In this document: positions 16,086-50,138 of the stretch, piece after piece
Position numbering within the stretch: the stretch's first letter is position 1
Layout of the letters: each line of letters opens with the position of its first letter
Assembly (NCBI GenBank): GCA_964620475.1
Contig: CAZUJN010000003.1
Span: 5,647-69,646, forward strand
Source: an uncultured Candidatus Saccharibacteria bacterium
Lineage (GTDB): Bacteria > Patescibacteriota > Minisyncoccia > Phycocordibacterales > CAIZLB01
DNA: 64,000 bases
Direction of reading: 5' to 3'
Made by a program: the position numbers and the translations under genes
Notes under the pieces: model-generated
The model's database searches: none
The model's input: only the letters and a program-made list of their open reading frames with translations
Told to the model about the DNA's origin: nothing

Positions 16086-16135
16086 GTAATAAAAAAGCAC
16101 ATGAACCCTTGTGGGGTGCATGTGCGTTTGACGGA
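16086..16135 (-). terminator. Terminator hairpin module, copy 1 of a duplicated ~45-bp element
   Basis: AAAAAGCACATGAACCCttgTGGGGTGCATGTGC; on the minus strand this reads as a hairpin plus T-run after gene 16153..16893. Confidence 0.6.
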
Positions 16136-16152
16136 CCAACCGTCATGACGAT

Positions 16153-16893
16153 TCACATCTTGGCATCTTCAATGGCGAGGCCGATAACCTCGATGTATTT
16201 CTTGAGGAGGTCTTCTCCTCCTTCCTTTAGGCGCCGCCCAGCGAACTTGGCGACGTCTTTATCCGGAAAAGCTTCGAAGACCTTATCCTCAAGATCCCAT
16301 TGATTTGGGGTCTTGGTGAGTTCACCGGCGCGGATGCGCTTGGCAATCTCATCAGCGGGCAAGTTATTCTCAAGCCAAATCTCGGCGAGACTAAAGTCTG
16401 AAACGATATCTCCCTCAAGCCACTTCTTGTATTTCTCCTGATTCTCCTTCTGGAGCATCAACTGGAAAGACACATTAATAGTGGAGAGAGTTCGACGAAG
16501 GTTATGCTGTTGTTCTTCGGGAAGTTTTTTGAATTCTTCCTTGAAACGAGGCTGGATTGCGAGGTAGGTATCCTTCAACTTAGAACCGTCGAAGAAGTAA
16601 CCCTTGATACGAGCGACAACAATGGTTCGACCTTGGAGATAGGATTCCCAGCCGTCTTTGTCCGTGACCCCGAGATTCTCATATGTCACATCACGGGCCG
16701 AATAATAGAGACCGTGCCCAGTCTCCTTCATTCCATACTCCTTTGCAGACTTCCAGAGTTCGTCGAACACCCGTTCGACTAGCAACTCTTTGACCGAGAA
16801 GGCCAAGAGTTTGCTAATGAGACCTTCGGCGATTTGCGCGCCGGTGACGGTGAGAACAAGAGCGGCAGTGATAGCGACAATCAGTTTTTTCAT
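16153..16893 (-). CDS. Secreted hypothetical protein encoded by a GC-rich (about 50% GC) gene
   Basis: Signal peptide MKKLIVAITAALVLTVTGA; its composition is clearly atypical for this genome. Confidence 0.65.
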   Translation of the reverse strand: MKKLIVAITAALVLTVTGAQIAEGLISKLLAFSVKELLVERVFDELWKSAKEYGMKETGHGLYYSARDVTYENLGVTDKDGWESYLQGRTIVVARIKGYFFDGSKLKDTYLAIQPRFKEEFKKLPEEQQHNLRRTLSTINVSFQLMLQKENQEKYKKWLEGDIVSDFSLAEIWLENNLPADEIAKRIRAGELTKTPNQWDLEDKVFEAFPDKDVAKFAGRRLKEGGEDLLKKYIEVIGLAIEDAKM

Positions 16894-16975
16894 GATAGTG
16901 GTTGGTTTTGGTTGTTGATGTTTCTGACTCTAATATTATACTATATTTAGAACCTAAAGTCAATAGTATAAACCC

Positions 16976-17218
16976 TTATAAAATAAAGAAAAAAGCACAT
17001 GAACCCTTATGGGGTGTATGTGCGTTTGAAGCGAGGACTGGCCATGAACACTTTGAGAAATGTTCCCAATCACTGTTATCTGTTCTGAGCTCCATTCTTT
17101 TGTTGACCTTGAAGAAGCGATAGCCTTGATACCAAATGACAGCGTGGGATTGCATGGTCGACGACAAAATCCAGATGAGGGCTAAGATGAGAGTTTTCAT
17201 ACCCTGTTTATATTGCAT
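16976..17218 (-). CDS. Small secreted hypothetical protein (start likely at the internal MKTLIL)
   Basis: Signal peptide MKTLILALIWILSSTMQSHA. The C-terminus runs into the terminator hairpin, so the true stop is uncertain. Confidence 0.35.
   Translation of the reverse strand: MQYKQGMKTLILALIWILSSTMQSHAVIWYQGYRFFKVNKRMELRTDNSDWEHFSKCSWPVLASNAHTPHKGSCAFFFIL
16985..17033 (-). repeat. Terminator hairpin module, copy 2 (near-identical to 16086-16135)
   Basis: AAAAAAGCACATGAACCCttaTGGGGTGTATGTGC; it overlaps the 3' end of ORF 16976..17218. Confidence 0.6.
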
Positions 17219-17488
17219 GAAAAGAGAAATAAAATCAATATTATAATAATATGACCAAATTTAGTAAATCCTTCTCGAGCACTTTCACCACCTCTCTCTA
17301 ATTGGTGAGCCTTCTCGTGATAGAACCAAGTGGTTCATTACCCAGTAAGGCTATTTTTAGTAATTTTTAGATATTGGATTGACCCTTCTCGGGAGGTATA
17401 AAAAGTGACAAAAGTGACACGGGATAGACTATAAAGTTACAGTTTGATGTCACAAAATAATAATTAAAAATATCTAATGTTTTAATTA

Positions 17489-18448
17489 TTACTGCATATT
17501 CTGAACACAGCTTATCATCCAACCACTATCATTTTTCCTTAAAGTTATCATCATTTTATCAGATACTTTTTCTTGATTTCCTAAAATCATTTGACCTGTA
17601 AGATGAACATAAGCCCAATCTTCATTTATACTTATATGTGTTATATTATTTTCTCCTTCAAATTTTATTTTATCAAAATTAATTCCAAACATCTCTTTGT
17701 CAAAATTATGATCTTCAGAATAGATATAATTTACAGTATCAGAACATACAGATTGTAATTTTTCAACATCTTTTTTGTTAAAAGCATCAAAATATAAATC
17801 AATGACCTTCTTAACTTGTTTTTTGTCATCAATATCTTTTTTGGACAAAATAATATATTCATATACATCAAGATTTGATATAGTGTCAATTTCTTTAACG
17901 TCTTCTTTATAATAAAGTTTTAATGTGTCTATATTAGATTTTGCCATATTAAAATATATACCTTTTTCACAGTGATTAAAAACTAAAAATTGAGTATCGT
18001 CGTTTAATTGTTCAATATATTGATGTATCAATACTACATTTACAGAACTATTTATAATTTTATTAAATATATCATCTTCATATTTCTGACAATCATCTAG
18101 TATCAGATATGTTTTTTCAGATAATTTGCCCGACTCTATCTTTGAAAGCATGAATTTATTTGCAAGTTTAATCGCCTCATCTTCACCTATTTTTCTTCTG
18201 TCAAAAACAATGTGCAGATTTTTATTTTCAATATAGGTATTTTTTATATCATCTTCGTTTTCTATATATACTTTTTCTAATAGATTTGAATCCACGACAA
18301 TGTCATCAAAAGCTGAAAGGTATATAACATTTTTATTATTTTTAATAATTTCTTCAATTTGATTTTTTACAAAATAAGTTTTACCGGTACCAGCCCTTCC
18401 CATTATGTGTGTAAGTTTACTATTTAATAGTGATTGATTTGTTTGCAT
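17489..18448 (-). CDS. P-loop NTPase fused to a C-terminal NTF2-like (SnoaL/DUF4440-like) domain
   Basis: Walker A GRAGTGKT, Walker B YLILDD. The C-terminal ~110 aa has a hydrophobic alpha+beta cone pattern (DLYFDAFNKKDVEKL...DWAYVHLTG...DSGWMI). Confidence 0.65.
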   Translation of the reverse strand: MQTNQSLLNSKLTHIMGRAGTGKTYFVKNQIEEIIKNNKNVIYLSAFDDIVVDSNLLEKVYIENEDDIKNTYIENKNLHIVFDRRKIGEDEAIKLANKFMLSKIESGKLSEKTYLILDDCQKYEDDIFNKIINSSVNVVLIHQYIEQLNDDTQFLVFNHCEKGIYFNMAKSNIDTLKLYYKEDVKEIDTISNLDVYEYIILSKKDIDDKKQVKKVIDLYFDAFNKKDVEKLQSVCSDTVNYIYSEDHNFDKEMFGINFDKIKFEGENNITHISINEDWAYVHLTGQMILGNQEKVSDKMMITLRKNDSGWMISCVQNMQ

Positions 18449-18469
18449 GTGTTTATTATAACATTTTTA

Positions 18470-18479
18470 CCCCCCCCCC
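18470..18479. repeat. Homopolymeric C10 (G10 on the coding strand), 22-31 nt upstream of the ATPase-NTF2 start codon
   Basis: ACCCCCCCCCCA read directly from the sequence. Confidence 0.9.
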
Positions 18480-18602
18480 ACAAGTAAAAATTATATATAA
18501 TCAAATTAACTATTAAAAAATACCTTTTTCAAAAATTCTGTAAACGCATTCATTTCTTCTTGAAACTTATGTAGTCTTTCAGCAAATCTTTAGGTAATAA
18601 AG

Positions 18603-19244
18603 CTAAACTTTAATTTCTTGTATCGGTCCATAGAAACATTCTTGTCTATTTGTATACACTGCCCACATTCTATCTCCATAACAATAATGCCACCATTCAC
18701 CTGGATACCATACAAAACCAGCTCTTTCCATAGCTTCTCTCAATATTTTTCTATTTTGTTTTTGATCTTCATTTATATCTTCAGAAAACATTTTTGCAAG
18801 TTTGTAATTAGAAGATAATTGAATAACTGTACCCATATCAACAAATTCACCAGAATCTTTATATATCAAAGTTAAATCTATCGCCCCACCGCAATTATGA
18901 TTAGCCAGAGGTGATGGTTTAGCAACCAATAAACCTGTTTGTTTTTCCCAATAATCAATATCGCTATCTGGAAATTCTTTTTTCATATTTTCATAGCACA
19001 TATCCCATTGTTGTTTTTGTTTTTCAAGAGGTCTAACACCTTCAACTATATATAAGCAAAATTCATCAGGAAGATTATTTGATGCTTTTTCTAACATTTC
19101 TATTAGAGCTTTACGTATTTTTATATCAGAATTTGCAAGACATACCTTTGAAGTAGGTATAATATTTACAATATATTCATTGTTTTCATTAATGATTATA
19201 TTTTGCCATTTTTCTTTTGAAAGTGTATTAGAAACTTGATACAT
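18603..19244 (-). CDS. D-Ala-D-Ala dipeptidase, VanX/DdpX (M15D) family
   Basis: PSPLANHNCGGAIDLTL (SxHxxGxAxD) and PGEWWHY motifs. Confidence 0.8.
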   Translation of the reverse strand: MYQVSNTLSKEKWQNIIINENNEYIVNIIPTSKVCLANSDIKIRKALIEMLEKASNNLPDEFCLYIVEGVRPLEKQKQQWDMCYENMKKEFPDSDIDYWEKQTGLLVAKPSPLANHNCGGAIDLTLIYKDSGEFVDMGTVIQLSSNYKLAKMFSEDINEDQKQNRKILREAMERAGFVWYPGEWWHYCYGDRMWAVYTNRQECFYGPIQEIKV

Positions 19245-19300
19245 AGTAAAATTATATCACAACCATTACTGACTATACTCAAAAAGTTACAGTGGTGTAA

Positions 19301-19564
19301 TTATTTACCAAACACCTCTTTTCTTCTTCCGTTTGCAAATTCTATATAATCTCCCAAAGTATCCAATCCTATTTTTAAACGTCTTTCATTAACTGATTCA
19401 GGGTTTTCCAAATCAATAACCTCATAGGTTTGTTTTTCTTCATTGAAGGTTATTTGTGTACCATATAACTGTTGATCACCCTCTGCTATTCTTATCTTAT
19501 CTTCAAGATATGCCATATCTTTTTTATCAACTTCTTGATCTGAAAAATCTTTCATGTCTTCCAA
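19301..19564 (-). CDS. Hypothetical acidic small protein
   Basis: 87-aa ORF, operon-like with its neighbours. Confidence 0.45.
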   Translation of the reverse strand: MEDMKDFSDQEVDKKDMAYLEDKIRIAEGDQQLYGTQITFNEEKQTYEVIDLENPESVNERRLKIGLDTLGDYIEFANGRRKEVFGK

Positions 19565-19687
19565 AACTTTTTTCTTAAATTCAATATCTTGTGAATGTAA
19601 TAATACTGTAACAAAATGATGTGATGCTGATTTTCCAACTTTACTTATAGTCGGAAACCCTATTTGTTAATATATTGATTTTATCTT

Positions 19688-19813
19688 TTAAGAATTTTGA
19701 CTATCAATTTCTAAATCAAATTTGCCACCAGCTCGAGTTTCCTGATCTAACTTGTGTATTAATTCTATTTCGTCAGCAATGTCTTTATATGAGGGTATGA
19801 TTTCTTGATTCAT
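19688..19813 (-). CDS. Hypothetical 41-aa ORF (not in the ORF track)
   Basis: MNQEIIPSYKDIADEIELIHKLDQETRAGGKFDLEIDSQNS; it starts 10 nt after the upstream gene's stop. Confidence 0.2.
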   Translation of the reverse strand: MNQEIIPSYKDIADEIELIHKLDQETRAGGKFDLEIDSQNS

Positions 19814-19823
19814 AATGTTTTAA

Positions 19824-20204
19824 TTACCTATATTTTTTATAACCTTTTTTACTCATACAATTCATAACCTCTGTATTAAAACTTTGAGAATTTGTTTCTA
19901 TCAAACATTCTTCATTAGCAGTCATTCTTTTTTGCTCGGAATAATTTCCAGAAATCCATAGAATTAGTAACAAAAGAGCAAAAGCAATTAAACCTATAAA
20001 AAAATGCTTTGTACTTTTAAAAGAAAACCAAAGGATGTTTAAGATTAAATAAATTATGAGTAGTATAATTATTTGTATAGATAAAGTAAGGTTTCCAAGT
20101 ACCATATTTTGCAGACCTAATAGGTAAAGTATTGTTAGTGACAATACAATATAAGTAATTAGTTTTGATTTTGTAAAATAAAAAAATTGTTTTATTAAAT
20201 TCAT
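19824..20204 (-). CDS. Hypothetical membrane protein (3 TM)
   Basis: Hydrophobic helices; C-terminal basic tail. Confidence 0.5.
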   Translation of the reverse strand: MNLIKQFFYFTKSKLITYIVLSLTILYLLGLQNMVLGNLTLSIQIIILLIIYLILNILWFSFKSTKHFFIGLIAFALLLLILWISGNYSEQKRMTANEECLIETNSQSFNTEVMNCMSKKGYKKYR

Positions 20205-20514
20205 GGTGATAATTATACCACAACTATTAAGCCTTGATGTTAGCCGTGTTAGGGATTTTTCACATTTCTCATTTTAAATATTTTTTATACATATCAATAT
20301 AGCCATATAAACAAAGGTTCATATACACTTTACTCATAAAACATCAAAATCATTAATCGGAGCATTTGTATGTTGCTGATAAAATTTAATCGTACCCTTG
20401 AAAAGGGGTATAAAAAAATTGTCTAAACAATAATAAATTAACAATAAGCAAAAAAACAAAAACATGGAAAACAAAAATAAAACATAAATAAAAAAAATAT
20501 AAACAAACAAAATT

Positions 20515-21801
20515 ATGAGTAAAAAATTAAGCTGGACAACAACCCAAAAAACAATAAACGAATTAATCCCTCAAAAGATTAATCCCAGAACAATTACAGA
20601 AAAACAAATTTCCGATCTTACTAGAAGCTTGAAGAAGTATAACCTAGTAGAGATACCTGCTATAGACTTAGACGGGACAATACTGGCTGGTCACCAAAGG
20701 ATCAAAGTGATGAAGATACTCGGACGAGGTGATGAACTTATAGATGTCCGCATGCCAAATCGTAAATTAACAGAGCAGGAGTCAAATGAATACCTAATAG
20801 CTTCGAACAAACTCGGCGGAGACTGGGATTATGATCTGTTAAAGACATTTGAATTCGACACTCTTGAGTTTGCAGGATTCGACAAGATAGAACTTACTAA
20901 TATGTGGGATGGAGATAAGAAAGCTGAAGATGATGAATTTATCATAGAGAAAGAATTGAAAGAAATAAAGGTTCCAAAAACAAAGATTGGGGATATTATT
21001 AAACTTGGCAAGCATAAGATTATTTGTGGCGATTCCACTAAACAAGAAACACTCACAAGGCTTTTGGGTAATGAGAAGGTGTCAATGATTTATTCGGATC
21101 CAGTGTATAACATAAACGTGAACTATGGTGGTGGTATTGGAGGTCAACAAAATTATGGTGGTGATGTAAACGACTCAAGAACATTTGATGAGTACAGGAA
21201 GTTTTTAAAAAACAGTATCGAGTGTGCGTTGGCGGTATCCAAACAGCATACTCATATATTTTACTGGTGCGACCAGATATATATCGGAGTGGTGCAAGAT
21301 ATTTATAGATCATTAGGTATAGAGAATAAAAGAGTATGTCTATGGATAAAGAATAATCAAAACCCTGTCCCTACTGTAGCGTTTAATAAAGTGTATGAAC
21401 CAGTGGTTTATGGAGTTCGGGGAAAACCACATCTTACAAAAACCATCCAGAATCTAAATGAGGTGATGAACAAAGAACTAACCACAGGTAACAACCTACT
21501 GGAAGAAATAAATGACATATGGATAGCAAAAAGGCTTTCCTCAAAAGATTATGAACATGCAACATCTAAACCAATAGAACTTCATGAAAAAGCTATAAGA
21601 AGATGTAGTAAGATGGGTGATATTATCCTAGATAGTTTTCTTGGCTCTGGAAGCACATTGATTGCAGGAGAAGCTCTGGGTCGAAGAGTTTATGGGTGTG
21701 AACTTGAGCCAGTATTTTGTGATCTTATAATCCGTCGATACGAAAAACTTACTGGCACTAAAGCAGTGATAGAACACCATGAAGAAAAACAAGGTCTATA
21801 A
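20515..21801 (+). CDS. ParB-like nuclease domain fused to an N4/N6 DNA methyltransferase (phage-type orphan methylase)
   Basis: N-terminal ParB/Srx fold (LAGHQRIKVMK). DPVYNI lies at the position of the catalytic DPPY; C-terminal SAM motif DSFLGSGST (beta-class order). Confidence 0.8.
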   Translation: MSKKLSWTTTQKTINELIPQKINPRTITEKQISDLTRSLKKYNLVEIPAIDLDGTILAGHQRIKVMKILGRGDELIDVRMPNRKLTEQESNEYLIASNKLGGDWDYDLLKTFEFDTLEFAGFDKIELTNMWDGDKKAEDDEFIIEKELKEIKVPKTKIGDIIKLGKHKIICGDSTKQETLTRLLGNEKVSMIYSDPVYNINVNYGGGIGGQQNYGGDVNDSRTFDEYRKFLKNSIECALAVSKQHTHIFYWCDQIYIGVVQDIYRSLGIENKRVCLWIKNNQNPVPTVAFNKVYEPVVYGVRGKPHLTKTIQNLNEVMNKELTTGNNLLEEINDIWIAKRLSSKDYEHATSKPIELHEKAIRRCSKMGDIILDSFLGSGSTLIAGEALGRRVYGCELEPVFCDLIIRRYEKLTGTKAVIEHHEEKQGL

Positions 21802-22177
21802 AAATTTCTTAGAGGAATTAGAGAGAACACCTATAATTTCTATTGCCTGTGAAAAATCTAACATATCCAGAAATACCTTTTATCGTTGGATGAAGGAAGA
21901 TAAAAATTTTTCACTACTAGCAAATGAATCACTGAAAAGAGGTATTGATCTAGTTAACGACGTGGCTGAAAGTAATATCCTTAACGGTATCAAAAATCAG
22001 GATAGAAAATCAACCGAGTATTGGCTTAGTCATAGACACCCTGTATACAAAAAACAGAATTATTATCATAAGGAAGATACAAGAGCGTTGGATAAAAAAA
22101 ACCATGAACAAAAAATAGAAGAAGCAAGGCGAAGAATGACTGAGTTTCAAGATAAATGGTTTAAGAAAGGTAAATGA
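21779..22177 (+). CDS. Terminase small subunit-like / homeodomain-like HTH protein
   Basis: ISRNTFYRWMKEDKNF HTH region; overlaps the methylase gene by 23 nt. Confidence 0.5.
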   Translation: MKKNKVYKNFLEELERTPIISIACEKSNISRNTFYRWMKEDKNFSLLANESLKRGIDLVNDVAESNILNGIKNQDRKSTEYWLSHRHPVYKKQNYYHKEDTRALDKKNHEQKIEEARRRMTEFQDKWFKKGK

Positions 22178-22178
22178 T

Positions 22179-22637
22179 TTACGACCTAACCTTATCTTTC
22201 AATTCATCAATTCTCTTCTTTACATTATATGGAGATTCGATATTTTTGAGTACAATCTCTAAACTACCAGATCCTGCTGTGTTTATAGCAATAGCACCTG
22301 AATGGCTTATCACTCTATCAAAAAAAGGTTCTCTAACATGAACATCGGTTATTTTCTGATAATCAATACTTGTTGTATTTGTAGATAGCCAACCTTTGTG
22401 TATTAAAATTCTTTTGTTAGTAAGTGCATAAACATTTGCAACTTTTTGGTAAAAACGAAAATTAAATAGAGCAATAAGAAATACAATTATTCCCATACCG
22501 AATGCTGGTAATAAAAATACACTCACTATACCCCAGATTATTAATTGTACTTTTAAGTATCTTCTACCTAGAGAAAACTCCAATTCTACTTTTTCGTCTG
22601 CATTTAGGGTTTTATCCCAGATTTTTTCATTTGTCAT
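22179..22637 (-). CDS. Bacterial PH-domain (bPH_2, YdbS/YdbT-like) membrane protein
   Basis: Two TMs followed by ALTNKRILIHKGWLSTNTTSIDYQKITDVHVREPFFDR. Confidence 0.6.
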   Translation of the reverse strand: MTNEKIWDKTLNADEKVELEFSLGRRYLKVQLIIWGIVSVFLLPAFGMGIIVFLIALFNFRFYQKVANVYALTNKRILIHKGWLSTNTTSIDYQKITDVHVREPFFDRVISHSGAIAINTAGSGSLEIVLKNIESPYNVKKRIDELKDKVRS

Positions 22638-22989
22638 AATTTTGCTTGATCGGCTTTAAAATTATTTGATAATAATGATGTGTTTTCTGTTGTATACAAA
22701 AAGCCCATCACGGGTAAGAGCCGAAGCTCTTCGTACCAGTTTCCCGATACGGCGATCAAGCAAAACCCCATGACGGGTTCTTTACACTTGATCGACTTTA
22801 GACCATATCCTTTAAAGTTAATTAAAGGGGTTAGGTCACAATTTGGTTGTAATTCCATAATACTTTATTTCAAAGTATTAGTCTATATTATATCGCTGAT
22901 TATAGCTTTTGCTAAGCTATTACGACCATGTAATAAAACCGCTGTTTTGCATAGCTATGCACCTGTAATGGTTGCGACACAATTGATAT

Positions 22990-24261
22990 ATGCAAGACAC
23001 AGAACTTAAATATTGCTTATACGCACGTAAATCAACCGAGGGGGATGAAAAACAAGCTTTATCAATAGACTCTCAGATAAAAGAAATGTTACAGATTGCA
23101 GAACGTGAAAACCTAAAAATTATCGAGATCAGAAAAGAATCACACTCAGCGAAGGAATCTAGTCAAAGACCAGTATTTGAAGAAATTGTTAAAGATATAG
23201 ATGGTGGTATTTTTAACTCAATAATAACTTGGGCACCTGATAGACTTTCTCGTAATGCAGGGGACCTTGGAAAATTAGTAGATAGAATGGATCAAAAAAA
23301 ATTAATTCAGATTAAAACTTTTGGACAAAATTTCACAAACTCTCCAAGTGATAAATTCCTATTAATGATTTTATGTTCTCAAGCAAAGCTTGAAAATGAT
23401 AATAAGAGTATCAATGTGAAGCGAGGTATGAGAACTCGTTGTGAGATGGGTTTATGGCCAGCACAACCACCCACAGGCTATAGAAAAGTAAATGATAGAA
23501 CTGCTAAGTGTGAAGTAGAGATTGATCCAGATAGATACAACACCATAAGACAAATATTTGAAAAAATTGCATATGAAAAGTGGAGCGTGTCTAAAGTTCA
23601 CGCATGGTTAAGATATGATATTAATTTCAAAACACAACGTGGATATAACTTAAGTATTGGAAATGTTTTTAAAATAATTAATAACACTTTTTACTATGGT
23701 AGATTTGAATTTCCTCAAGGAAGTGGTATTTGGTATGAAGGTATACATAAACCAATAATAACAAAAGAATTATTTGACGAGACACGAAGTGCTGTGAAAT
23801 CTCAAGTTATAAAATCACAAGGTAAAGAATTTGCTTTTACTAGAATTATGAAGTGTGGGGTGTGCGGATCTGGAATTACCGCTGATGAGAAGTTTAAGAA
23901 GATAAAGCATGGTGGAGTTAACAGATATGTATATTACAGATGCACAAAAGCAAAAGATAGGAATTGTAAAAATCCTGCTTTAAACGAAACTGAATTAATA
24001 GAATCTTTTATTAGTATGATTAATAAACTTAATATCAACAAAGTTAAACTTACAACAAAACTTGATATCGAGATACAAAAGTTCAAGAAGTTGCAAGCAA
24101 TGTTTTTAGGTAGAAAGAAAACAGAGAAAATAGAATCTATAGATCTTAAGGATTATATGAAATTTGTACTCAAGGAAGGCTCTATTTTAGAGCAAAGGGC
24201 TGTGTTGGAGTGTATCGAAAGTGAATTATTTATGAATAATAAAAAGATAAGAACTGATTAA
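22990..24261 (+). CDS. Large serine recombinase (resolvase/integrase family with zinc ribbon)
   Basis: YARKSTEGDEKQALSIDSQ catalytic region, DRLSRN, CGVCGSG...YYRC zinc ribbon, C-terminal coiled coil. Confidence 0.85.
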   Translation: MQDTELKYCLYARKSTEGDEKQALSIDSQIKEMLQIAERENLKIIEIRKESHSAKESSQRPVFEEIVKDIDGGIFNSIITWAPDRLSRNAGDLGKLVDRMDQKKLIQIKTFGQNFTNSPSDKFLLMILCSQAKLENDNKSINVKRGMRTRCEMGLWPAQPPTGYRKVNDRTAKCEVEIDPDRYNTIRQIFEKIAYEKWSVSKVHAWLRYDINFKTQRGYNLSIGNVFKIINNTFYYGRFEFPQGSGIWYEGIHKPIITKELFDETRSAVKSQVIKSQGKEFAFTRIMKCGVCGSGITADEKFKKIKHGGVNRYVYYRCTKAKDRNCKNPALNETELIESFISMINKLNINKVKLTTKLDIEIQKFKKLQAMFLGRKKTEKIESIDLKDYMKFVLKEGSILEQRAVLECIESELFMNNKKIRTD

Positions 24262-24262
24262 C

Positions 24263-26482
24263 TTAATTAATACCAAAGGTATTATAATGATCTATATCGA
24301 CACTCTTAATTACATCAAAATAATTTTTAATTCTCTGTTTACAGCCCTGTAAGACTGCAATATCATACTTTTCAAGACCTAAAAATTCATGTGATCCATG
24401 ATTAATGAAACGATTCATAACCTTCTCTTCTTGACCTACTTCCTGTACTATAATATCTTTTTGTGCAGGGTCTGTTTTTTTTAGTCTAATATCTTTATAG
24501 TTTGTATACAGTTGTTTTAGTTTGCTTTTTAAATCTCCATGACCATACTTAAAATGTAGAAAAGTTTCAATTGATCGACGAAGTAAATTGGCTGCCAAAA
24601 TTGCATCATCTAAACTCGTACTATCTTTTATATCATTAAGTTTAGTAATCGCATACAAATAGTCCGATCTATAGTTTTTAAGACTTTCATCAAGTATTTT
24701 TATTGATGACCCGGCATTATTCATACTTATTTGATAAAAGTTGACTAAATCATATTTAATTGTTCCGTCAGGCTTTTTATAATCCTGAAGTAGGTGTCCA
24801 AAAAAATCTAAATTGTGTGTAAAAATAAAATATTGCCGATTATCATCCTGCTCAATCTCACCAGACAGAATAGCATATACTTGGAAAAGTGAATCAGAAT
24901 CTAGACTGGATACAGGATCATCAATAACAATAATTGCATCATTATCTAATTTATCATCTTCATCATTAATTGAAAGTAAAAAATAAGCAAGCGCTAAGAA
25001 ATTTCTTTCACCTTCACTCAAATTGTCTAAACTACACTTTACGCTGTCTCTTTTTAAAACGTATCCAACTTCTTCAGTGGAATCATCAAGCTCTATTTTT
25101 TTATATGGAAAAGTTGAAGCCAACAATCTATTTATTCGATCAGCTGGAATTTGAACATTTTTTGCTTCTTTTTTAAGATCTTTTAATTCTTGTTCAAGTT
25201 TTTTTATTTCATTGCTCTTATCTAATCTACTTTTTAAGCAATCTGTGTAGACTTTCTTTTTATCAAGATATTTTAAATATTCAATGGCAACATAATGAGT
25301 TTCAACGGACCATGCTGTTTTATTGACATCAAAGACCTCTTCATCAATAAAGAGATTATTAAACTCACAAGAATCTATCCCTTTAATTTTATTTTCTTTT
25401 TTGATTTTTATTTTTTCTTGTAAAGTGATAAAAAAAGTTTTCAAACTCTTTTTCTCTGAAGTGTAAAAAAATTCGCAGGAAATAATCTCATTTAAAGCAT
25501 CTTCAGTGCTTTTACTTAAAATGTCTAATATATTATTTAATTCAATAACATCATTAGAAAAATTTTTTAATAATTCATCTCTGTTTTGAATTTTCGAACC
25601 ACAAAAAAGACAGGTATCGAGCTTCTCGTCCTCATTATAAAGTTTATGTATATCTACACCCTTTCTAACCCAATCTTCTTCTTTACCTCCGTCAGGATAA
25701 CTACTCATTCTCATGGATTTTTCATAAACTGGAGTAAATTTTAAATATTTATTTATTTTTTCTAGATTTTCAATTACCCAATAATTCCATTTCTTGAGAA
25801 TTTTATATTCTCTTTCTTTTTCAGATAAATTTGAAAGTGTCGCTAATAGTTTTTTTAATTTATCGTCGTCTTTTATAAAGTTTTCTAATTGATTACCTCT
25901 ATTAATCTGTTTTGACAGCCAGTCCACCCTTACCTCAAAAGAACTTTTATCATATCCTGTGAAATTTCCAACTCCTCCAGTAGCAGGATCTTTTTTAATA
26001 TGACCAATACCAGGTAGCAATTTAATGAATTTAGAAGCATTTTGAGATATATCTTCATACTCATTCTTGCACTGAGGAAGTTTAAGAAGCTCGTCTCTAG
26101 CAATATCTAATTCTTTTTGTTTGTTAGAGAAATCAACCTCTGTGGCACCTATTGCAACGACATATTTTAAATGAGTTTGATCTATAATCTTTTTTATATA
26201 ATCTTCATTAAAAACACGAATTTTACTTTCATAACCAGAAAGTTCGTCTTGTTTTTTTGCACCCGTATCAAATCCTACAGTAAAATTTGCTCCACTTATT
26301 TTACTTCCACTCTCAATTATCCCTTTCTCATAAGATTGTAGAATTCTAGATATAATCGTTTTTCCACACCCGTTCCAACCTAATAAAATATTTACTTTAC
26401 TATGAAATTCTGGAATAGTTGTGTCCCATTGAAAGTTTTTAAATGTACCGAAATTAATTGATTGTATCTTTTTAATTTTCAT
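24263..26482 (-). CDS. RloC-like ABC-type ATPase with zinc-hook coiled-coil insertion and putative C-terminal HEPN-like anticodon-nuclease domain
   Basis: Walker A GWNGCGKT; ABC signature LSEGERNFLALAYFL; Walker B IVIDDPVSSLD. The coiled-coil insert has CLFCG (CxxC); the C-terminus has RRSIETFLH (Rx6H). It overlaps the upstream methyltransferase gene by 11 nt. Confidence 0.55.
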   Translation of the reverse strand: MKIKKIQSINFGTFKNFQWDTTIPEFHSKVNILLGWNGCGKTIISRILQSYEKGIIESGSKISGANFTVGFDTGAKKQDELSGYESKIRVFNEDYIKKIIDQTHLKYVVAIGATEVDFSNKQKELDIARDELLKLPQCKNEYEDISQNASKFIKLLPGIGHIKKDPATGGVGNFTGYDKSSFEVRVDWLSKQINRGNQLENFIKDDDKLKKLLATLSNLSEKEREYKILKKWNYWVIENLEKINKYLKFTPVYEKSMRMSSYPDGGKEEDWVRKGVDIHKLYNEDEKLDTCLFCGSKIQNRDELLKNFSNDVIELNNILDILSKSTEDALNEIISCEFFYTSEKKSLKTFFITLQEKIKIKKENKIKGIDSCEFNNLFIDEEVFDVNKTAWSVETHYVAIEYLKYLDKKKVYTDCLKSRLDKSNEIKKLEQELKDLKKEAKNVQIPADRINRLLASTFPYKKIELDDSTEEVGYVLKRDSVKCSLDNLSEGERNFLALAYFLLSINDEDDKLDNDAIIVIDDPVSSLDSDSLFQVYAILSGEIEQDDNRQYFIFTHNLDFFGHLLQDYKKPDGTIKYDLVNFYQISMNNAGSSIKILDESLKNYRSDYLYAITKLNDIKDSTSLDDAILAANLLRRSIETFLHFKYGHGDLKSKLKQLYTNYKDIRLKKTDPAQKDIIVQEVGQEEKVMNRFINHGSHEFLGLEKYDIAVLQGCKQRIKNYFDVIKSVDIDHYNTFGIN

Positions 26483-27461
26483 GACTCTTCAAATCTTTCA
26501 TTATTTTTTTTGCTAAAAAGTGTGCAAGGTTAACAGGTACAGCATTACCGATCATCTTATAGCCATTTGCCACATCATTATATTTAAAAATAAATGTATC
26601 AGGAAATGTCTGAACTCTTGCACATTCACGGACAGATAAACGACGATATAAATGTTCTTTTCCAGGAACAAATATTCTTTTATTTTGTTCAATAAATTTC
26701 ATTTTTGGAGCTTGTGGGTGGAGTGGAGCATGACGACCACCAGCCTGAATGGTAAAGGAAGGTTCATCCCAAGATCTAACACGATTTCTTGACATATATA
26801 TAGTCGAAAAACCACCAATCATGTACTCATGATTTGGAATTTTCAATTTATCACCATTAGTTTTATTTTTATCTTTTGCAGGTTTTGCTAATCGTAAATC
26901 GTAAATAGCATCCTTTAGAACAGGTTTATGCTTTTGAGGCTCAGGAAATTCAAATTTCTTTTTTAATTTTTTATGATATCCGACAATAATTACACGAAGT
27001 CTATCTTCAGGAACACCGTAATCATTTGCGTTTAATAATTTCCAAGAAATCACATACCCCGCACTCTCAAATGATTTAATTATGTTATTAAATGCATCTG
27101 CATGTTTTGGATGAAGTATACCTGAAACATTTTCTGCTAAAAAGAATTTTGGTTGTTTTTCTTTTAATAATCTAACATAATCAAAAAACAACTGACCTCT
27201 CTTATCATCTATACCACGACCAGCCCCGGCTTCACTCCAACTCTGACATGGTGGACCTCCAATAATTCCATCTACATCGGGTATATCTGAGTGGGATACG
27301 TTAACAATACTTCGTCGATCAAGTTTTGTTTTAGGAAAATTATGTTCAAAAGTCTCCCAAATAGTTGAATCATATTCATTAGCCCATACAACATGAAAAC
27401 CAGCCTTTTCAAAACCTAGATCGAGTCCTCCTGCACCAGTGAATAATGAAGCTATTTTCAT
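26472..27461 (-). CDS. C5-cytosine DNA methyltransferase
   Basis: Motif I FTGAGGLDLGF, motif IV GGPPCQSWS, motif VI ENV. Confidence 0.9.
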   Translation of the reverse strand: MKIASLFTGAGGLDLGFEKAGFHVVWANEYDSTIWETFEHNFPKTKLDRRSIVNVSHSDIPDVDGIIGGPPCQSWSEAGAGRGIDDKRGQLFFDYVRLLKEKQPKFFLAENVSGILHPKHADAFNNIIKSFESAGYVISWKLLNANDYGVPEDRLRVIIVGYHKKLKKKFEFPEPQKHKPVLKDAIYDLRLAKPAKDKNKTNGDKLKIPNHEYMIGGFSTIYMSRNRVRSWDEPSFTIQAGGRHAPLHPQAPKMKFIEQNKRIFVPGKEHLYRRLSVRECARVQTFPDTFIFKYNDVANGYKMIGNAVPVNLAHFLAKKIMKDLKSHEN

Positions 27462-27465
27462 AAAT

Positions 27466-28446
27466 TTAATCTTTACTTATATTTAGTGTATTTTTAAATA
27501 ATGTTTTTGGAGCTTTTATAAGGTTTATATCAAACTTTAAAGAAGACTCCACCCTAGAACTTGCATTGTGTATCCTAAATGAAAGTACCCAGTCATTGTT
27601 CATTGTAACAATAGCAGTTGTAATACTATCATTTTTAAAATCAACATCTAAAATTTCTGTTGGGAGCGGAACTTTAGGTGTTTTGTATTTTGGTTGAATA
27701 TCTTTAAAAGGAAGATTTAGTGTTCCATTAATATTATAAGCATGTATCTCAATTGAGTTTTTACCTTTTATAACTTTATAAAAATCTTTATTTCCAACTA
27801 AATACGCGACTAGATTAGATGCAACTTTTACAGGATCTTTTTCATATAGATCTTTTAATTCTTTTATAAATGCTTTCAAAATTGGAGTATATACAGAAGT
27901 GTGGTAGTCACCTAGTTCACTCCATTTTTTCTTAGCACCACTTTCTTTTCTAATATTTTCAAGATTTTGAAAAATAGGTGTTATTGTATTAAAATATTCT
28001 TTAGAATTTTTTATTCCTAACCACTTATCTCCAAAATCTATATTTGAAGAGAGCCTAGAGTGTTTAACTGCTTTATGATTATTTTTTGCAGATACCCCAA
28101 TTTCCCATTTTTGGAGGAGACGAATAGCTATGACATCACGGACATCTCCAGATTTACCATGATTATCTGATAAGATTTCAAGTTGTAAAATATCATCCTT
28201 ACCGATATCATTTGAAAGTCTAGGCTCTATATCAATTAAGAAATTTACAGCAAAACTTGCCGACAATAAATATTCACTTTTTTCACTATTTGTAACACTG
28301 TCAAAACAACTTTTAGCAACACTAAAAGCAGAATTTGTAATAATCTCTATATTTGTCTTATCCTTAAGCTTCTCTTCAAAGGAAATAAGAAGAGCGTATT
28401 CGAAGGATTTTCCTGTTGTCATCTGTTTTGAATTTGTACTTGCCAT
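27466..28446 (-). CDS. Type II restriction endonuclease, apparently HaeIII/NgoPII-like family (GGCC-type); partner of the m5C methylase
   Basis: Stops 4 nt before the methyltransferase start. Pattern GDVRDVIAIR...WEIGVSAKNNHKAVKHSRLS...KWSEL...FYKVI...LSFRIHNAS...SLKFDI recalled as HaeIII-family; this needs a database check. Confidence 0.5.
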   Translation of the reverse strand: MASTNSKQMTTGKSFEYALLISFEEKLKDKTNIEIITNSAFSVAKSCFDSVTNSEKSEYLLSASFAVNFLIDIEPRLSNDIGKDDILQLEILSDNHGKSGDVRDVIAIRLLQKWEIGVSAKNNHKAVKHSRLSSNIDFGDKWLGIKNSKEYFNTITPIFQNLENIRKESGAKKKWSELGDYHTSVYTPILKAFIKELKDLYEKDPVKVASNLVAYLVGNKDFYKVIKGKNSIEIHAYNINGTLNLPFKDIQPKYKTPKVPLPTEILDVDFKNDSITTAIVTMNNDWVLSFRIHNASSRVESSLKFDINLIKAPKTLFKNTLNISKD

Positions 28447-28546
28447 AATTATAACAGTGATTATATCACATTAATTTATGCATAACACTGACATGAAAAA
28501 CCTTATCATTTCGACCCTTCTCGAGTGCTCGAACTAGTGCTCGACA

Positions 28547-28621
28547 TGGTGACCCCACGGAGAGTCGAACTCCGGTTAACAGATTGAGAACCTGCTGTCC
28601 TAACCACTAGACGATGGGGCC
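28547..28621 (-). tRNA. tRNA-Glu (anticodon CUC), CCA encoded
   Basis: GGCCCCAUCGUCUAGUGGUUAGGAC...; anticodon loop UUCUCAA; T-arm CGGAGUUCGACUCUCCG; acceptor pairs; 3' CCA. Confidence 0.75.
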
Positions 28622-48234: not shown

Positions 48235-49287
48235 TTATTTTTGCTCTATTACATGATACTTGCCAGAAGAATCCTTTTTAAAGGCATTTGAGTTTTGTAA
48301 ATTAACTAATATAGTATTTTCTTTTACATATCTCTCCTTCATAACTTTATCAAATATCTCTTCTCTGGTCATAGGGCCGTATTTATTTAAAACCTTTATT
48401 ATAACGTCTTTTACTACCCCTGAAACATAGCCCCACTCTGCTAAAGCATATAGACCACGTCCAACCAATACAAAACGATCATCTTTTATAAGCTCATTAT
48501 GTGTTGTAGCTTCATGAGCTCTTTTACCAAATACGTTTTGTATAAGTTTGGCTATTTCTTTAAAGTGTACAGGTGATCCATGCTTTCTCATGGCTAGATA
48601 TGCATAATCTCTAATACCCTTAACCTTAACATTGGTTGATGCTGCTTTACCCCACTCTCCTAATGGGTTTTTATCTATATGTTTAGATATACGCAACCAT
48701 CTCTTTGATATCTCCTCATTTTTAAGCTCTTCTGACACATCCTTTATATTATCCATAAAAGCTTTTATCATCTCATTCTCAGGTATCAATGAATTATCAT
48801 CAAGATTTGAATAAAGCTTTCTTAAGGCTTCATGTATCTTTTTTGATAAATCATTATCCACATGCCATCTATGATGAAATTCATCAGTTTCTTTCTCTTT
48901 TTTAAATTGATCGCCTATAATCAATAAAAAGTGAAAATGATTTTGTGTAGATTTATCGCGTGACAAATGACTTAATAGGTCATGTTCGGCCACAATACCT
49001 CCAAGTTTTTTTACATATAGAGCAAGCTCTTCAAAAACATGAGCCTCCTCTTTAAAAGCTTGTGACTTTCTAATAGTTATAACTGAGTTAGCCTCTATCT
49101 GTCTAACTCTTTCTCTTGTTATATCATAGGTCTCACCAATAGCTTCAAGTGTCATCTTTTCTGTATTTCTATCCAATCCGAAACGATGAGCTAAGATAAC
49201 TCTTGAGCGCTCAGGTATAGCACCTAATAATTTTTTTGTAACATTCTTCACCTTAAATGAGAATGTTGGGGTTGAAGTATTAGCCAT
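48235..49287 (-). CDS. Sigma-70 region 4-like HTH domain protein (350 aa) inserted in the ribosomal cluster
   Basis: N-terminal ILAHRFGLDRNTEKMTLEAIGETYDITRERVRQIEANSV equals the sigma region 4.2 HTH; the remainder is unknown. Confidence 0.5.
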   Translation of the reverse strand: MANTSTPTFSFKVKNVTKKLLGAIPERSRVILAHRFGLDRNTEKMTLEAIGETYDITRERVRQIEANSVITIRKSQAFKEEAHVFEELALYVKKLGGIVAEHDLLSHLSRDKSTQNHFHFLLIIGDQFKKEKETDEFHHRWHVDNDLSKKIHEALRKLYSNLDDNSLIPENEMIKAFMDNIKDVSEELKNEEISKRWLRISKHIDKNPLGEWGKAASTNVKVKGIRDYAYLAMRKHGSPVHFKEIAKLIQNVFGKRAHEATTHNELIKDDRFVLVGRGLYALAEWGYVSGVVKDVIIKVLNKYGPMTREEIFDKVMKERYVKENTILVNLQNSNAFKKDSSGKYHVIEQK

Positions 49288-49470
49288 ATGTGTTTTATAT
49301 TTTTATCATGTTTGTTGATATAAGTCAAATATTAGTCAAGTATATTGTCAAGGACACAAGGGGTTTAATATTATAGGACATTATTCACTGATATAAATAT
49401 AAAAGACATTGTTTTAGCCTTATTTAACAATGTCTTTTATAAATATGTCTTATAAACAAAAACAAGGTTT

Positions 49471-49593
49471 TTACCCTTGTTTTGCATTTCTCTTACGGTT
49501 AGCTTTATTAATACGATATAGATGCTTTCCACGACGTACGATAAATTCACCTTGACGAAGATCTTGTTTTTTAAGTGATGATACTAATTTCAT
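49471..49593 (-). CDS. rpmJ: Ribosomal protein L36-like, cysteine-less (zinc-independent) form; absent from the ORF track
   Basis: MKLVSSLKKQDLRQGEFIVRRGKHLYRINKANRKRNAKQG aligns with L36 (MKVRASVKKICRNCK..RQG), with all Cys residues replaced. Confidence 0.45.
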   Translation of the reverse strand: MKLVSSLKKQDLRQGEFIVRRGKHLYRINKANRKRNAKQG

Positions 49594-49632
49594 AATACAT
49601 AGAATATAACATTAATCATCACTTATTACAAG

Positions 49633-50085
49633 TTATCTGGTAACAGATATGTTGCCCTGTATTTCACCTATAGCAGACACTGTTAAGCGACCGTTATTAA
49701 TGACTAGGTTATACCCAGTATTATAATCGTCTTCACTATTATAATAAGTATTATTACCTTTTGGATCATATGGTAACTTAGATATATAATCCGGCACTAA
49801 ACATGAAGATATATCTTGACCCGTAGAGCTGATAACCTCTAAGACCCCTTCAGTTAAAGTCTTAACTGATCCATCACAAAATAGGTTACCCTCATGATCT
49901 GCTATATTCTGACCCAATGCATTTAATATGGTGTTAACATTAGCAACACGCTGTGAATCCCTAGCTTGTTTAAACTGCCTATTAGGATTGACGGCCACCA
50001 AAACAACAGTGGCCAATATCCCTATAATACCTATAACCACTAATATCTCTATAAGGGTAAACCCTTTATTTTTTTGTATTTTCAT
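49633..50085 (-). CDS. Type IV pilin (prepilin-type N-terminal cleavage/methylation domain)
   Basis: KGFTLIEILVVIGIIGILA class III signal peptide. Confidence 0.75.
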   Translation of the reverse strand: MKIQKNKGFTLIEILVVIGIIGILATVVLVAVNPNRQFKQARDSQRVANVNTILNALGQNIADHEGNLFCDGSVKTLTEGVLEVISSTGQDISSCLVPDYISKLPYDPKGNNTYYNSEDDYNTGYNLVINNGRLTVSAIGEIQGNISVTR

Positions 50086-50138
50086 ATGTTTATTTTTGTT
50101 TAAATTATTGATAATACATGTATCTTATAAAAAACACA

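What the first reader, a model, noticed from the sequence alone, without database searches (positions are those of the whole stretch)
17290..28546. Accessory island abutting the tRNA-Glu 3' end: serine recombinase, phage-type ParB-methylase, terS-like gene, defence genes
Between the housekeeping blocks the gene content switches to mobile and defence functions. These are a large serine recombinase with a zinc ribbon, a ParB-fused N4/N6 methylase overlapping a terminase-small-like HTH gene (a phage hallmark pair), the R-M plus RloC-like operon, a bPH membrane protein, and an ATPase-NTF2 fusion with a VanX dipeptidase. The block ends exactly at the 3' end of tRNA-Glu (28547), and tRNA 3' ends are classic integration targets. 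The short motifs GACCCTTCTCG (17384, 28514) and ACCCTT-N7-GGTATAAAAA (17386, 20394) recur near the candidate borders.
Basis: partly seen in the sequence, partly recalled or inferred. Interest (0 to 1): 0.6.

Follow-up and report, generated by a model that had tools for sequence, protein, structure and literature searches.

The report
Serine-recombinase defence island at tRNA-Glu
This is an 11-kb mobile island, carrying anti-phage genes, inserted at the very end of a tRNA-Glu gene in a tiny "candidate phyla radiation" bacterium. It belongs to a large, apparently undescribed family whose serine recombinase targets tRNA gene ends and which often carries the orphan LOOT RNA.

Summary
Window 17303-28552 is one integrative element of about 11.2 kb in a Patescibacteria (Paceibacteria-like) genome.

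- **Ends:** it is bounded by a TGGTGA repeat. One copy is the 3' end of tRNA-Glu(CTC). Both ends match conserved terminal sequences found in dozens of related loci.
- **Genes:** Here the slots hold a HaeIII-type R-M plus an AAA_13/PDC-S06 ATPase, and VanX plus a P-loop protein.
- **Family pattern:** in all 27 metagenomic loci with a tRNA downstream of the LSR gene, the tRNA's 3' end faces the element. Most are tRNA-Glu; others are Arg, Ile, Gly, Gln, Asp and Ser.
- **Site occupancy:** a related genome has the same tRNA-Glu site empty, and another has different cargo there.
- **Relatives:** some add TerL, an S24 repressor, CBASS or Thoeris, which makes them look like phage satellites.

The second motif is probably chance.

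This is a new variant of a known kind (tRNA-targeting island, tycheposon- or PICI-like), unusual because a serine integrase targets tDNA. Mobility is inferred, not shown.

The parts
28547..28621 (-). tRNA-Glu(CTC), the attachment target. Its last bases (TCACCA, read as TGGTGA on the + strand at 28547-28552) form the junction.
   Evidence: ARAGORN; Rfam tRNA. The same tRNA sits next to SerRS/FtsQ in relatives L002 (occupied) and L003 (empty).
28511..28546 (+). Conserved right end of the element (TCGACCCTTCTCGAGTGCTCGAACTAGTGCTCGACA), i.e. the P arm of attR.
   Evidence: The same ~35 nt abut tRNA-Glu(ctc/ttc), Arg, Ile and Gly genes in related loci (alignment A6). A 23-mer pattern has 0 hits in 1.30 Mb of control CPR loci and 18 in 0.61 Mb of LSR loci. 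It is absent from the empty site in L003.
17303..17308 (+). Left copy of TGGTGA, the repeat shared with the tRNA end. Homology to other elements starts at the invariant GTG at 17305-17307.
   Evidence: Alignment A5 of 14 left ends: the flanks are unrelated up to GTG and the sequence is conserved after it.
17309..17455 (+). Conserved left end: motif A (GCCTTCTCGTGATAGAACC..., 17309-17355) and motif B (TTGACCCTTCTCGGGAGGTATAAAAAGTGACAAAAGTGACAC, 17379-17421).
   Evidence: In minimal relatives (L099-L106) this block lies only ~180 nt upstream of the LSR gene.
17489..20204 (-). Cargo slot 1: P-loop/NTF2-like protein (17489-18448), VanX D-Ala-D-Ala dipeptidase (18603-19244), DUF6624 fragment (19301-19564), small membrane protein (19824-20204).
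   Evidence: Pfam. The equivalent slot holds CBASS in L085 and Thoeris in L148.
20515..21801 (+). ParB-like nuclease domain fused to an N6/N4 DNA methyltransferase. This is a conserved core gene of the larger elements.
   Evidence: Pfam N6_N4_Mtase 1.3e-32; phrog_498 6e-85 and phrog_620 6e-22. Homologues at 43-72% identity lie upstream of the LSR in ~25 loci.
21779..22177 (+). TerS-like HTH protein. It may be a small terminase subunit, a regulator or a directionality factor.
   Evidence: phrog_4102 6.4e-7. 8 of 11 family members hit Pfam Sf6_terminase and 9 of 11 hit HTH_Tnp_1_2. It is followed by TerL in L084-86, L090-92, L126, L148 and L174.
22179..22637 (-). bPH_2 membrane protein, the variable gene downstream of LOOT.
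   Evidence: Pfam bPH_2 3.8e-13. In other loci this position holds unrelated genes.
22716..22837 (-). LOOT RNA (Rfam RF03000), transcribed divergently from the LSR gene. A promoter-like site lies at 22915->22887 (TTAGCA-17-TATAAT).
   Evidence: cmscan 77 bits against a gathering score of 46.4. Covariation in 24 copies: 95% of cells paired, 33 of 40 pairs with compensatory changes. Promoter scan; the promoter hexamers are conserved in relatives.
22990..24261 (+). Large serine recombinase (423 aa; YARKS catalytic motif near the N-terminus), the inferred integrase.
   Evidence: Pfam Resolvase + Recombinase + Zn_ribbon_recom; phrog_95 integrase 4.8e-62; PDB SPbeta YokA 1.5e-11 and TP901-1 integrase. 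At least 8000 homologues, the top 120 at 79% identity or more.
24263..28446 (-). Cargo slot 2 (defence operon): HaeIII-type REase (27466-28446), C5 cytosine MTase (26472-27461), AAA_13/PDC-S06 ATPase (24263-26482).
   Evidence: Pfam; PADLOC. The same slot in 10 relatives holds type I, IIG or III R-M systems and helicase-nucleases.
17270..17302 (+). Degenerate right-end-like sequence (CCTTCTCGAGCACTTTCACCACCTCTCTCTAAT) just outside the left junction. It is probably the scar of an older element pushed away from the tRNA.
   Evidence: Alignment A6. Intact right-end/left-end junctions of this kind occur in L081:7867-7990 and L097:4567-4700.

Best explanation
Window 17303-28552 is one integrated copy (~11.24 kb) of a mobile element family of Patescibacteria/CPR bacteria.

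**Proposed mechanism.**
- The element's large serine recombinase (22990-24261) is inferred to have recombined an attP with an attB.
- attP is formed by joining the conserved right end (28511-28546) to the conserved left end (17309-17455) across a GTGA-containing core.
- attB consists of the last bases of tRNA-Glu(CTC) (...TCACCA) and its trailer.
- Because the crossover lies at the discriminator/CCA end, the tRNA stays whole and no tRNA fragment has to be carried.

**Layout.**
- Core: ParB-like methylase, TerS-like HTH protein, LOOT RNA with a variable downstream gene, LSR.
- Two cargo slots: left end to methylase, and LSR to tRNA. These exchange genes, mostly anti-phage.
- In this copy the tRNA-proximal slot holds a GGCC-type (HaeIII-like) R-M operon with an AAA_13/PDC-S06 ATPase.

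**Relatives.** Some carry TerL, an S24 repressor, CBASS or Thoeris but no capsid genes. The family therefore most likely spreads as a phage-satellite-like or otherwise hitch-hiking island.

**Shown:** gene content, conserved ends, tRNA association and orientation, an empty and a differently filled site in relatives, tandem junctions.

**Inferred:** that the LSR catalyses the event, the exact crossover dinucleotide, present-day activity, the transfer route, and the role of LOOT. LOOT is probably a promoter-proximal leader or regulator of the divergent transcription unit.
For: 1. LSR domain architecture and integrase-type matches.
2. In 27 of 27 metagenomic loci that have a tRNA downstream of the LSR gene, the tRNA is on the opposite strand with its 3' end facing the element. 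The same arrangement holds in the window, L002, L149, L014, L034 and L051.
3. A ~35-nt right end is conserved next to Glu, Arg, Ile and Gly tRNAs. It is absent from 1.3 Mb of control CPR DNA.
4. Left-end homology starts abruptly at GTG, and the flanks beyond it are unrelated.
5. The tRNA-Glu(CTC) next to SerRS/FtsQ is empty in L003. In L002 it is filled with other cargo plus a 58%-identical LSR and a LOOT RNA.
6. Right-end/left-end junctions without a tRNA (attP-like or tandem) occur in L081 and L097, and a degenerate one lies at window 17270-17302.
7. The LSR is 79-87% identical across lineages named Paceibacterota, Nomurabacteria and Moranbacteria. By comparison, SerRS of all but three (L001-L003, 81-88%) of the 80 loci returned is at most 69% identical.
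8. Cargo varies between loci while the core is kept.
9. The element has 1 GGCC site against 11-18 in equal host stretches, and shows the window's highest tetranucleotide deviation.
Against: - No excised circle or empty site from the same species was found. Exact-protein look-ups returned only the occupied arrangement, in two samples.
- The duplicated core is only 4-6 nt, so on its own it proves nothing.
- GC content is close to the host's.
- No recombination directionality factor, replication gene or transfer gene is identified in this copy. It also lacks the TerL and S24 repressor seen in relatives, so it may be immobile or dependent on helpers.
- The dyad symmetry expected of LSR att sites is not evident by eye in the reconstructed attP.
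Confidence: 0.85

Rival explanations
1. The region is a static defence hot-spot built by accretion next to the tRNA. The LSR and the end motifs are relics of past events, and the 11-kb block no longer moves as a unit.
For: This copy lacks the TerL, S24 repressor and any replication or transfer gene found in relatives. A decayed neighbour scar at 17270-17302 and a GC-rich block at 16088-17269 show that decay does happen at this site. Only the occupied form was retrieved.
Against: The LSR ORF is full length with its catalytic motif. Both ends match the family consensus closely. Close LSR relatives (79-87% identical) are spread over many lineages, which implies recent transfer of such units.
Confidence: 0.1
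2. Two independent elements lie side by side. One is a minimal LSR + R-M element (about 22.7-28.5 kb). The other is an unrelated phage-derived remnant (17.3-22.6 kb) carrying the methylase and TerS-like genes.
For: Minimal relatives (L099-L106) consist only of left end, LSR, cargo and right end. The methylase/HTH pair is phage-like.
Against: There is no left-end motif between 20.2 and 22.99 kb; the only one is at 17303-17455. The order left end, cargo, methylase, HTH, (gene, LOOT), LSR, cargo, right end, tRNA recurs in L082, L092, L095 and L085 within single pairs of ends.
Confidence: 0.04
3. The conserved sequences next to the tRNA are host features, such as a tRNA trailer, terminator or processing signal, and the LSR serves another role such as inversion or resolution.
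For: The shared core is short. The right end sits where a tRNA trailer would be.
Against: The right end is absent at the empty tRNA-Glu of L003 and in 1.3 Mb of control loci. It occurs next to five different tRNA species only when an LSR is nearby. It also occurs fused to left ends with no tRNA present (L081, L097). No inverted repeats flank an invertible segment.
Confidence: 0.01

Closest known systems
Tycheposons of Prochlorococcus (Hackl et al.; bioRxiv 10.1101/2020.12.28.424599)
   Same: Both are small cargo-carrying integrative elements at the 3' side of tRNA genes in streamlined genomes. Both form tandem arrays and decayed remnants that build islands. Both have PICI-like variants with terS and cargo-only variants.
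   Different: Tycheposons use tyrosine recombinases (474 of 501 carry a tRNA-associated tyrosine recombinase), duplicate a partial tRNA, and carry primase/helicase replication modules. This element uses a large serine recombinase, shares only ~6 nt with the tRNA, has no replication gene, and carries mostly defence cargo.
Phage satellites: PICI/SaPI, and PLE of Vibrio cholerae (which uses an LSR integrase; PMC9638900)
   Same: Both combine an integrase with a terS-like gene. Relatives add TerL and an S24/CI-like repressor without capsid genes. Both carry anti-phage cargo. PLE shows that satellites can use large serine recombinases.
   Different: No helper phage, replication module or capsid-remodelling genes are identified. 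This copy lacks the repressor and TerL. PLE integrates in Vibrio cholerae repeats (my recollection, not checked), not in tRNA genes.
Classical tRNA-gene genomic islands (Islander signature; PMC4383910)
   Same: An island with its own integrase, bounded by a tRNA gene 3' end.
   Different: Those islands use tyrosine integrases and regenerate the tRNA from a carried fragment. [quoted passage not shown] Here the crossover is at the extreme 3' end and no tRNA fragment is carried.
LOOT RNA motif (Rfam RF03000; Weinberg et al. 2017, PMC5737381)
   Same: The window RNA matches the whole model (77 bits) and the helices covary.
   Different: No function or genomic association is given in the texts I could read; the supplement is not held. 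Here LOOT is tied to one mobile-element family, at a fixed place and orientation.

Membership tests
Large serine recombinase (phage-type serine integrase) | N-terminal resolvase catalytic domain with the catalytic Ser, followed by a Recombinase domain and a zinc ribbon domain | tested here: met
   Pfam PF00239 4.3e-20, PF07508 4.6e-11, PF13408 6.9e-10. YARKS motif at residues 11-15. PDB SPbeta YokA 1.5e-11.
Large serine recombinase (phage-type serine integrase) | Catalyses attP x attB recombination with a 2-bp crossover | not testable with these tools
   Only the junction sequences are available. The shared core GTGA/TGGTGA is compatible with this.
tRNA-targeting genomic island (Islander signature) | Intact tDNA at one end of the island | tested here: met
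   tRNA-Glu(CTC) 28547-28621 abuts the right end.
tRNA-targeting genomic island (Islander signature) | Displaced tDNA fragment (tens of nt) at the other end | tested here: not met
   Only TGGTGA (6 nt) is shared. No longer tRNA match was found at 14-23 kb.
tRNA-targeting genomic island (Islander signature) | Tyrosine-family integrase | tested here: not met
   The only recombinase is a serine recombinase.
Tycheposon | Tyrosine recombinase specific for the island tRNA, plus a replication module (primase/helicase) | tested here: not met
   No tyrosine recombinase, primase or replicative helicase among the element's ORFs.
Tycheposon | Integration next to a tRNA with tandem arrays and remnants | tested here: met
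   Tandem junctions in L081 and L097; remnant at window 17270-17302.
PICI-like phage satellite | Integrase + master repressor + replication module + packaging gene(s), no full virion gene set | tested here: inconclusive
   The window has an integrase and a weak TerS-like gene only. Relatives add an S24 repressor and TerL. No replication module was found anywhere.
PICI-like phage satellite | Induction and packaging by a helper phage | not testable with these tools
   No helper is known. Three family members are in IMG/VR viral contigs (L142, L143, L174), but these are short fragments.
LOOT RNA (RF03000) | Score above the Rfam gathering threshold over the full model, with helices supported by covariation | tested here: met
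   77 bits against 46.4, model positions 1-121. 33 of 40 pairs have compensatory changes.
Type II R-M, HaeIII type | Adjacent REase of the HaeIII family and a C5 cytosine methylase | tested here: met
   PF09556 2.7e-96 and PF00145 3.8e-101, with adjacent genes. GGCC specificity is inferred from the family; the element has 1 GGCC.
RloC/PrrC anticodon nuclease | ABC/AAA_13 ATPase head plus a C-terminal anticodon-nuclease domain | tested here: inconclusive
   AAA_13 2e-72. The best PADLOC match is PDC-S06 at 2.7e-74; PrrC is only 4.8e-8. Nuclease motifs were not examined.

The most novel reading that the evidence does not exclude
The LSR clade found here may be a CPR-wide family of serine integrases that have specialised on the extreme 3' end of tRNA genes. 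That target class was thought to be reserved for tyrosine integrases. In this reading the orphan LOOT RNA is a functional part of the element's life cycle, for example controlling the switch between integration/excision and expression of the divergent gene slot, rather than a passenger.
Probability: 0.2. Interest if true: 0.75.

Novelty: new variant of a known kind. Interest (0 to 1): 0.6.

Why it matters
- **Gene exchange in CPR bacteria.** These bacteria have tiny genomes, mostly lack CRISPR (my own recollection, not checked here), and their means of gene exchange are poorly known. A very common island family (at least 8000 LSR homologues) that shuttles R-M, CBASS, Thoeris and other systems between lineages would be a main route by which they gain and swap phage defence.
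- **A new target class for serine integrases.** A serine integrase clade that reads tRNA gene ends widens the known target range of these enzymes. It also offers many natural enzyme/att pairs with predictable sites: Glu, Gln, Arg, Ile, Gly, Asp and Ser tRNAs.
- **A context for LOOT.** The finding gives the orphan LOOT RNA a defined genetic setting in which its function can be tested.

Tried and rejected
- **Same-species empty site or circle.** Exact-protein look-ups for the two flanking genes and the LSR returned only the occupied arrangement, from Logan SRR12487046 and ENA ERZ4216102. No direct proof of mobility.
- **LOOT as a guide or 'bridge' RNA.** The longest matches between LOOT and the att junction in 8 loci are 5-7 nt, no better than random 80-nt windows. 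Rejected.
- **Left end as a tRNA-like gene or known RNA.** Rfam at E<=1 found nothing in 17200-17500. By eye the T-arm and anticodon-arm pairings do not hold. Left as protein-binding sites.
- **Circular-contig test.** Contigs L082, L092, L095 and L099 start ~120 nt before the left end, but they have no terminal overlaps. These are host flanks, not circles.
- **My first LOOT alignment by MAFFT** gave a poor structure. I replaced it with a hand-specified structure on three close copies, then iterated the model.
- **ACCCTT-N7-GGTATAAAAA at 20394 as an inner border.** It is not conserved upstream of the methylase in 12 loci.
- **LOOT in IMG/VR.** A pattern scan gave 55 candidate loci, of which only one (L174) is a real LOOT, and it is again in an LSR element.
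- **PDB search with the HTH family profile.** Nothing significant.
- **Literature.** Searches found no description of this CPR element family.


Full report
**Setting.** The window has about 31-33% GC. Its seryl-tRNA synthetase is closest (81-88% identity) to metagenome-assembled genomes of Patescibacteria/CPR labelled Paceibacteria, Saccharibacteria or Parcubacteria. The finding covers 17290-28546, just downstream of tRNA-Glu(CTC) at 28547-28621 on the minus strand.

**Check of the observation.**
  - Large serine recombinase (LSR) with zinc ribbon, 22990-24261.
  - N6/N4 methylase with a ParB-like N-terminal domain, 20515-21801. It overlaps a 132-aa HTH gene, 21779-22177, that weakly resembles small terminase subunits.
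  - bPH_2 membrane protein, 22179-22637.
  - Minus-strand operon of HaeIII-type endonuclease, C5 methylase and an AAA_13 ATPase. The ATPase's best defence-library match is PDC-S06; PrrC is only a weak match.
  - VanX dipeptidase.
  - The 'ATPase-NTF2' label rests on sub-threshold hits.
- The short motif GACCCTTCTCG is at 17381 and 28513.
- The octamer CCTTCTCG is over-represented and clusters at the borders: 5 copies against 0.43 expected.

**Related loci.** The LSR protein retrieved 61 metagenome loci and 2 viral-contig loci. Most are 74-87% identical, with a tail at 51-61%.
The best 120 are all at least 79% identical, with source names from Paceibacterota, Nomurabacteria, Moranbacteria and 'Patescibacteria group'.
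- With each locus oriented so that the LSR is on the plus strand, every one of the 27 loci that has a tRNA downstream has it on the minus strand, 1.5-10 kb away, with its 3' end facing the LSR.
- The tRNA is Glu (CTC or TTC) for most close relatives. It is Arg-CCT, Ile-GAT or Gly-TCC for some. For the distant ones it is Gln, Asp or Ser.
- The same layout appears in a Moranbacteria genome (L149).
- Three SerRS-anchored control loci hold 30-52% identical LSRs next to tRNA-Gln (L014, L034, L051).

**Ends of the element.**
- *Right end.* Directly after the tRNA 3' end, the close relatives share a ~35-nt sequence, read on the plus strand as TCGACCCTTCTCGAGTGCTCGAACTAGCTCTCTAAT followed by TGGTGA and the tRNA body. 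The tRNA species and the host do not matter (alignment A6). In the window it is 28511-28546.
  - A 23-mer pattern from it has no match in 1.30 Mb of unrelated CPR loci and 18 matches in 0.61 Mb of LSR loci.
- *Left end.* Fourteen loci align from an invariant GTG onwards (window 17305-17307), and their flanks before it are unrelated (alignment A5).
  - The conserved left end holds motif A (GCCTTCTCGAGATGCGAC...).
  - About 74 nt later comes motif B (TCGACCCTTCTCGAGAGATATAAAAAGTGACAAAAGTGAC).
- *Shared core.* Both junctions share T(G)GTGA, or GTGC at tRNA-Arg and tRNA-Ile. This corresponds to the last acceptor-stem bases, the discriminator and the start of CCA. In the window TGGTGA is at 17303-17308 and 28547-28552, giving an element of about 11.24 kb.
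- *Tandem junctions.* In L081 and L097 a right end is fused directly to a left end across TGGTGA with no tRNA. That is what an attP, or a junction between tandem copies, would look like.
- *Scar in the window.* Just outside the window's left junction, 17270-17302 is a degenerate right end. It is preceded by a 1.2-kb block of 44-48% GC. This suggests an older element was pushed away from the tRNA.

**Site occupancy in relatives.** The same tRNA-Glu(CTC) lies downstream of SerRS and the FtsQ-like gene in the two closest long contigs.
- In L003 it is followed directly by housekeeping-type genes, with no right-end sequence: an empty site.
- In L002 it is followed by a different cargo (a 511-aa protein and a 1654-aa helicase-nuclease), then a 58%-identical LSR and a LOOT RNA.
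- I found no empty site or excised circle from the window's own species. Exact-protein look-ups returned only the occupied form, in two samples.

**Architecture of the family.**
- Minimal members are left end, LSR, cargo, right end, tRNA (L099-L106).
- Larger members insert, between left end and LSR, a first cargo slot, the ParB-like methylase and the HTH gene. Homologues of these two occur in about 25 loci.
- After that comes either a TerL gene directly before the LSR (L084-86, L090-92, L126, L148) or a minus-strand gene headed by LOOT. L174 has both TerL and LOOT.
- L085, and a complete Nomurabacteria genome (L148), carry an S24/LexA-like repressor and either CBASS (SMODS + S_4TM) or Thoeris (ThsA/ThsB) in slot 1. 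In slot 2 they carry T5orf172 and a helicase; L085 also has an MmeI-type R-M there, but L148 ends before that position. Neither has capsid genes.
- Slot 2 in ten other loci holds type I, IIG or III R-M systems or helicase-nucleases. One locus carries metabolic genes instead.
- Eight of eleven HTH family members hit the Sf6 small-terminase Pfam model.
- The family thus looks like a defence-carrying, satellite-like island. The window copy has neither TerL nor repressor.

**LOOT RNA.**
- Two covariance models built here found 24 copies in 65 sources.
- In 23 of the 24 copies LOOT is on the strand opposite the LSR; L124 is the exception, on the same strand.
- In most loci with a copy it lies 153-174 nt from the LSR start codon. 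In two it is 260-300 nt away, and in several 1-4 kb away.
- The helices are strongly supported: 95% of cells paired and 33 of 40 pairs with compensatory changes.
- A sigma-70-like promoter (TTAGCA-17-TATAAT, 22915->22887) lies about 50 nt upstream, and its hexamers are conserved in relatives.
- In each of the 15 loci with sequence downstream of LOOT, a co-oriented ORF starts within about 10-120 nt, and its identity varies: bPH protein here; T5orf172, OB-fold 'tRNA_anti-like' proteins, small membrane proteins or unknowns elsewhere.
- No terminator follows LOOT in the window.
- LOOT shows no complementarity to the att junctions beyond chance, so a guide-RNA role is not supported.
- In IMG/VR, an exact-pattern scan plus the model found LOOT only in three contigs, all members of this element family.
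- I read LOOT as a leader or regulator of the transcription unit divergent from the LSR. That is inference.

**Composition.**
- GC of the element (30.2%) is near the host's (32.6%).
- The largest tetranucleotide deviation in the whole window is at 23-28 kb.
- GGCC, the expected HaeIII-type target, occurs once in the element. Equal-length host stretches have 11-18, and the element's own composition predicts 4.5-5.8.

**Comparison with known systems.** The element works like a tRNA-targeting integrative island.
- The nearest described analogues are tycheposons (tRNA-adjacent, tandem arrays, cargo and PICI-like types) and phage satellites, of which PLE also uses an LSR.
- It fails the defining features of the Islander-type island and of tycheposons. 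It has no tyrosine integrase, no displaced tRNA fragment beyond 6 nt, and no replication module.
[quoted passage not shown] I found no later text that changes this, but my search was limited to the held library.
- No paper describing this CPR family, or a genomic context for LOOT, was found.

**Verdict.**
- The borders are at 17303-17309 and 28546-28552.
- The island is a member of a large, apparently undescribed LSR-driven family in CPR bacteria.
- The family is notable for tRNA-end targeting by a serine integrase and for a recurrent association of part of the family (24 of 65 sources) with LOOT RNA.
- Mobility of this particular copy, the crossover position and the transfer route remain inferred.

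Noticed in passing
window 16088-17269: A 1.2-kb block of 44-48% GC in a ~31% GC genome. It holds a 246-aa ORF (16153-16893, no Pfam/PHROG hit) and an 80-aa ORF. Each ORF is followed by a 44-nt terminator-like direct repeat (16088-16131 and 16986-17029, 93% identical). The block sits between VanY and the element's left junction and may be cargo of an older, decayed element.
   Followed up: partly
window 17303-28546: GGCC, the expected target of the HaeIII-type R-M carried by the element, occurs once (23456). Equal-length host stretches have 11-18, and the element's own composition predicts 4.5-5.8. The host DNA in the window is not depleted (70 observed, 65 expected).
   Followed up: partly
L085:6560-6750, L086:1050-1245, L091:735-930, L092:2650-2845: A conserved, hairpin-rich non-coding stretch upstream of the ParB-like methylase gene in LOOT-less relatives (GCGTAGTAAAAAGTAGAATAGTGTATCGCC...GCCTATTCCGCGCAAGAAATAAGT...ACTTATTTCGTGTGTGGAATAGGC...TTTTCTAT). 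It could be another structured RNA or a terminator/antiterminator. It is absent from the window.
   Followed up: no
L085:9915-10005 and most LSR loci; window 22935-22992: A conserved ~85-nt region just upstream of the LSR start: GCGAGTATGCGACGT, then a CTGCATAG..TATGCAG hairpin, then the palindrome CTGTCATTAATTAATATATGACAG, which includes the ATG. The first part resembles left-end motif A (CTCGAGATGCGAC). It may be an operator or autoregulatory site. The window copy keeps the hairpin (GCATAGCTATGC) but not the palindrome.
   Followed up: no
L116:10871-11157: The right end is followed by a 24-nt partial tRNA-Glu 3' fragment. The complete tRNA-Glu lies ~180 nt further on, with an inverted copy of the tRNA end in between. 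In L113:16536-16575 the right end abuts only ~9 nt of tRNA-like sequence. These look like rearranged or pseudo-attachment sites.
   Followed up: no
window 49000-54500: The second-highest tetranucleotide deviation (0.19) and 38% GC lie just after the tRNA-Ala/Lys/Leu cluster (50672-50943). The region contains hypothetical genes and several small membrane proteins with a shared C-terminal motif (...FWGIVALFVMVSVWGLV...). No recombinase was seen and there are no family end motifs.
   Followed up: no
L082, L092, L095, L099 (contig starts): Four independent metagenome contigs begin 117-129 nt before the element's left end. This is consistent with assemblies breaking where the population is heterogeneous at this junction. 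No terminal overlaps were found.
   Followed up: partly
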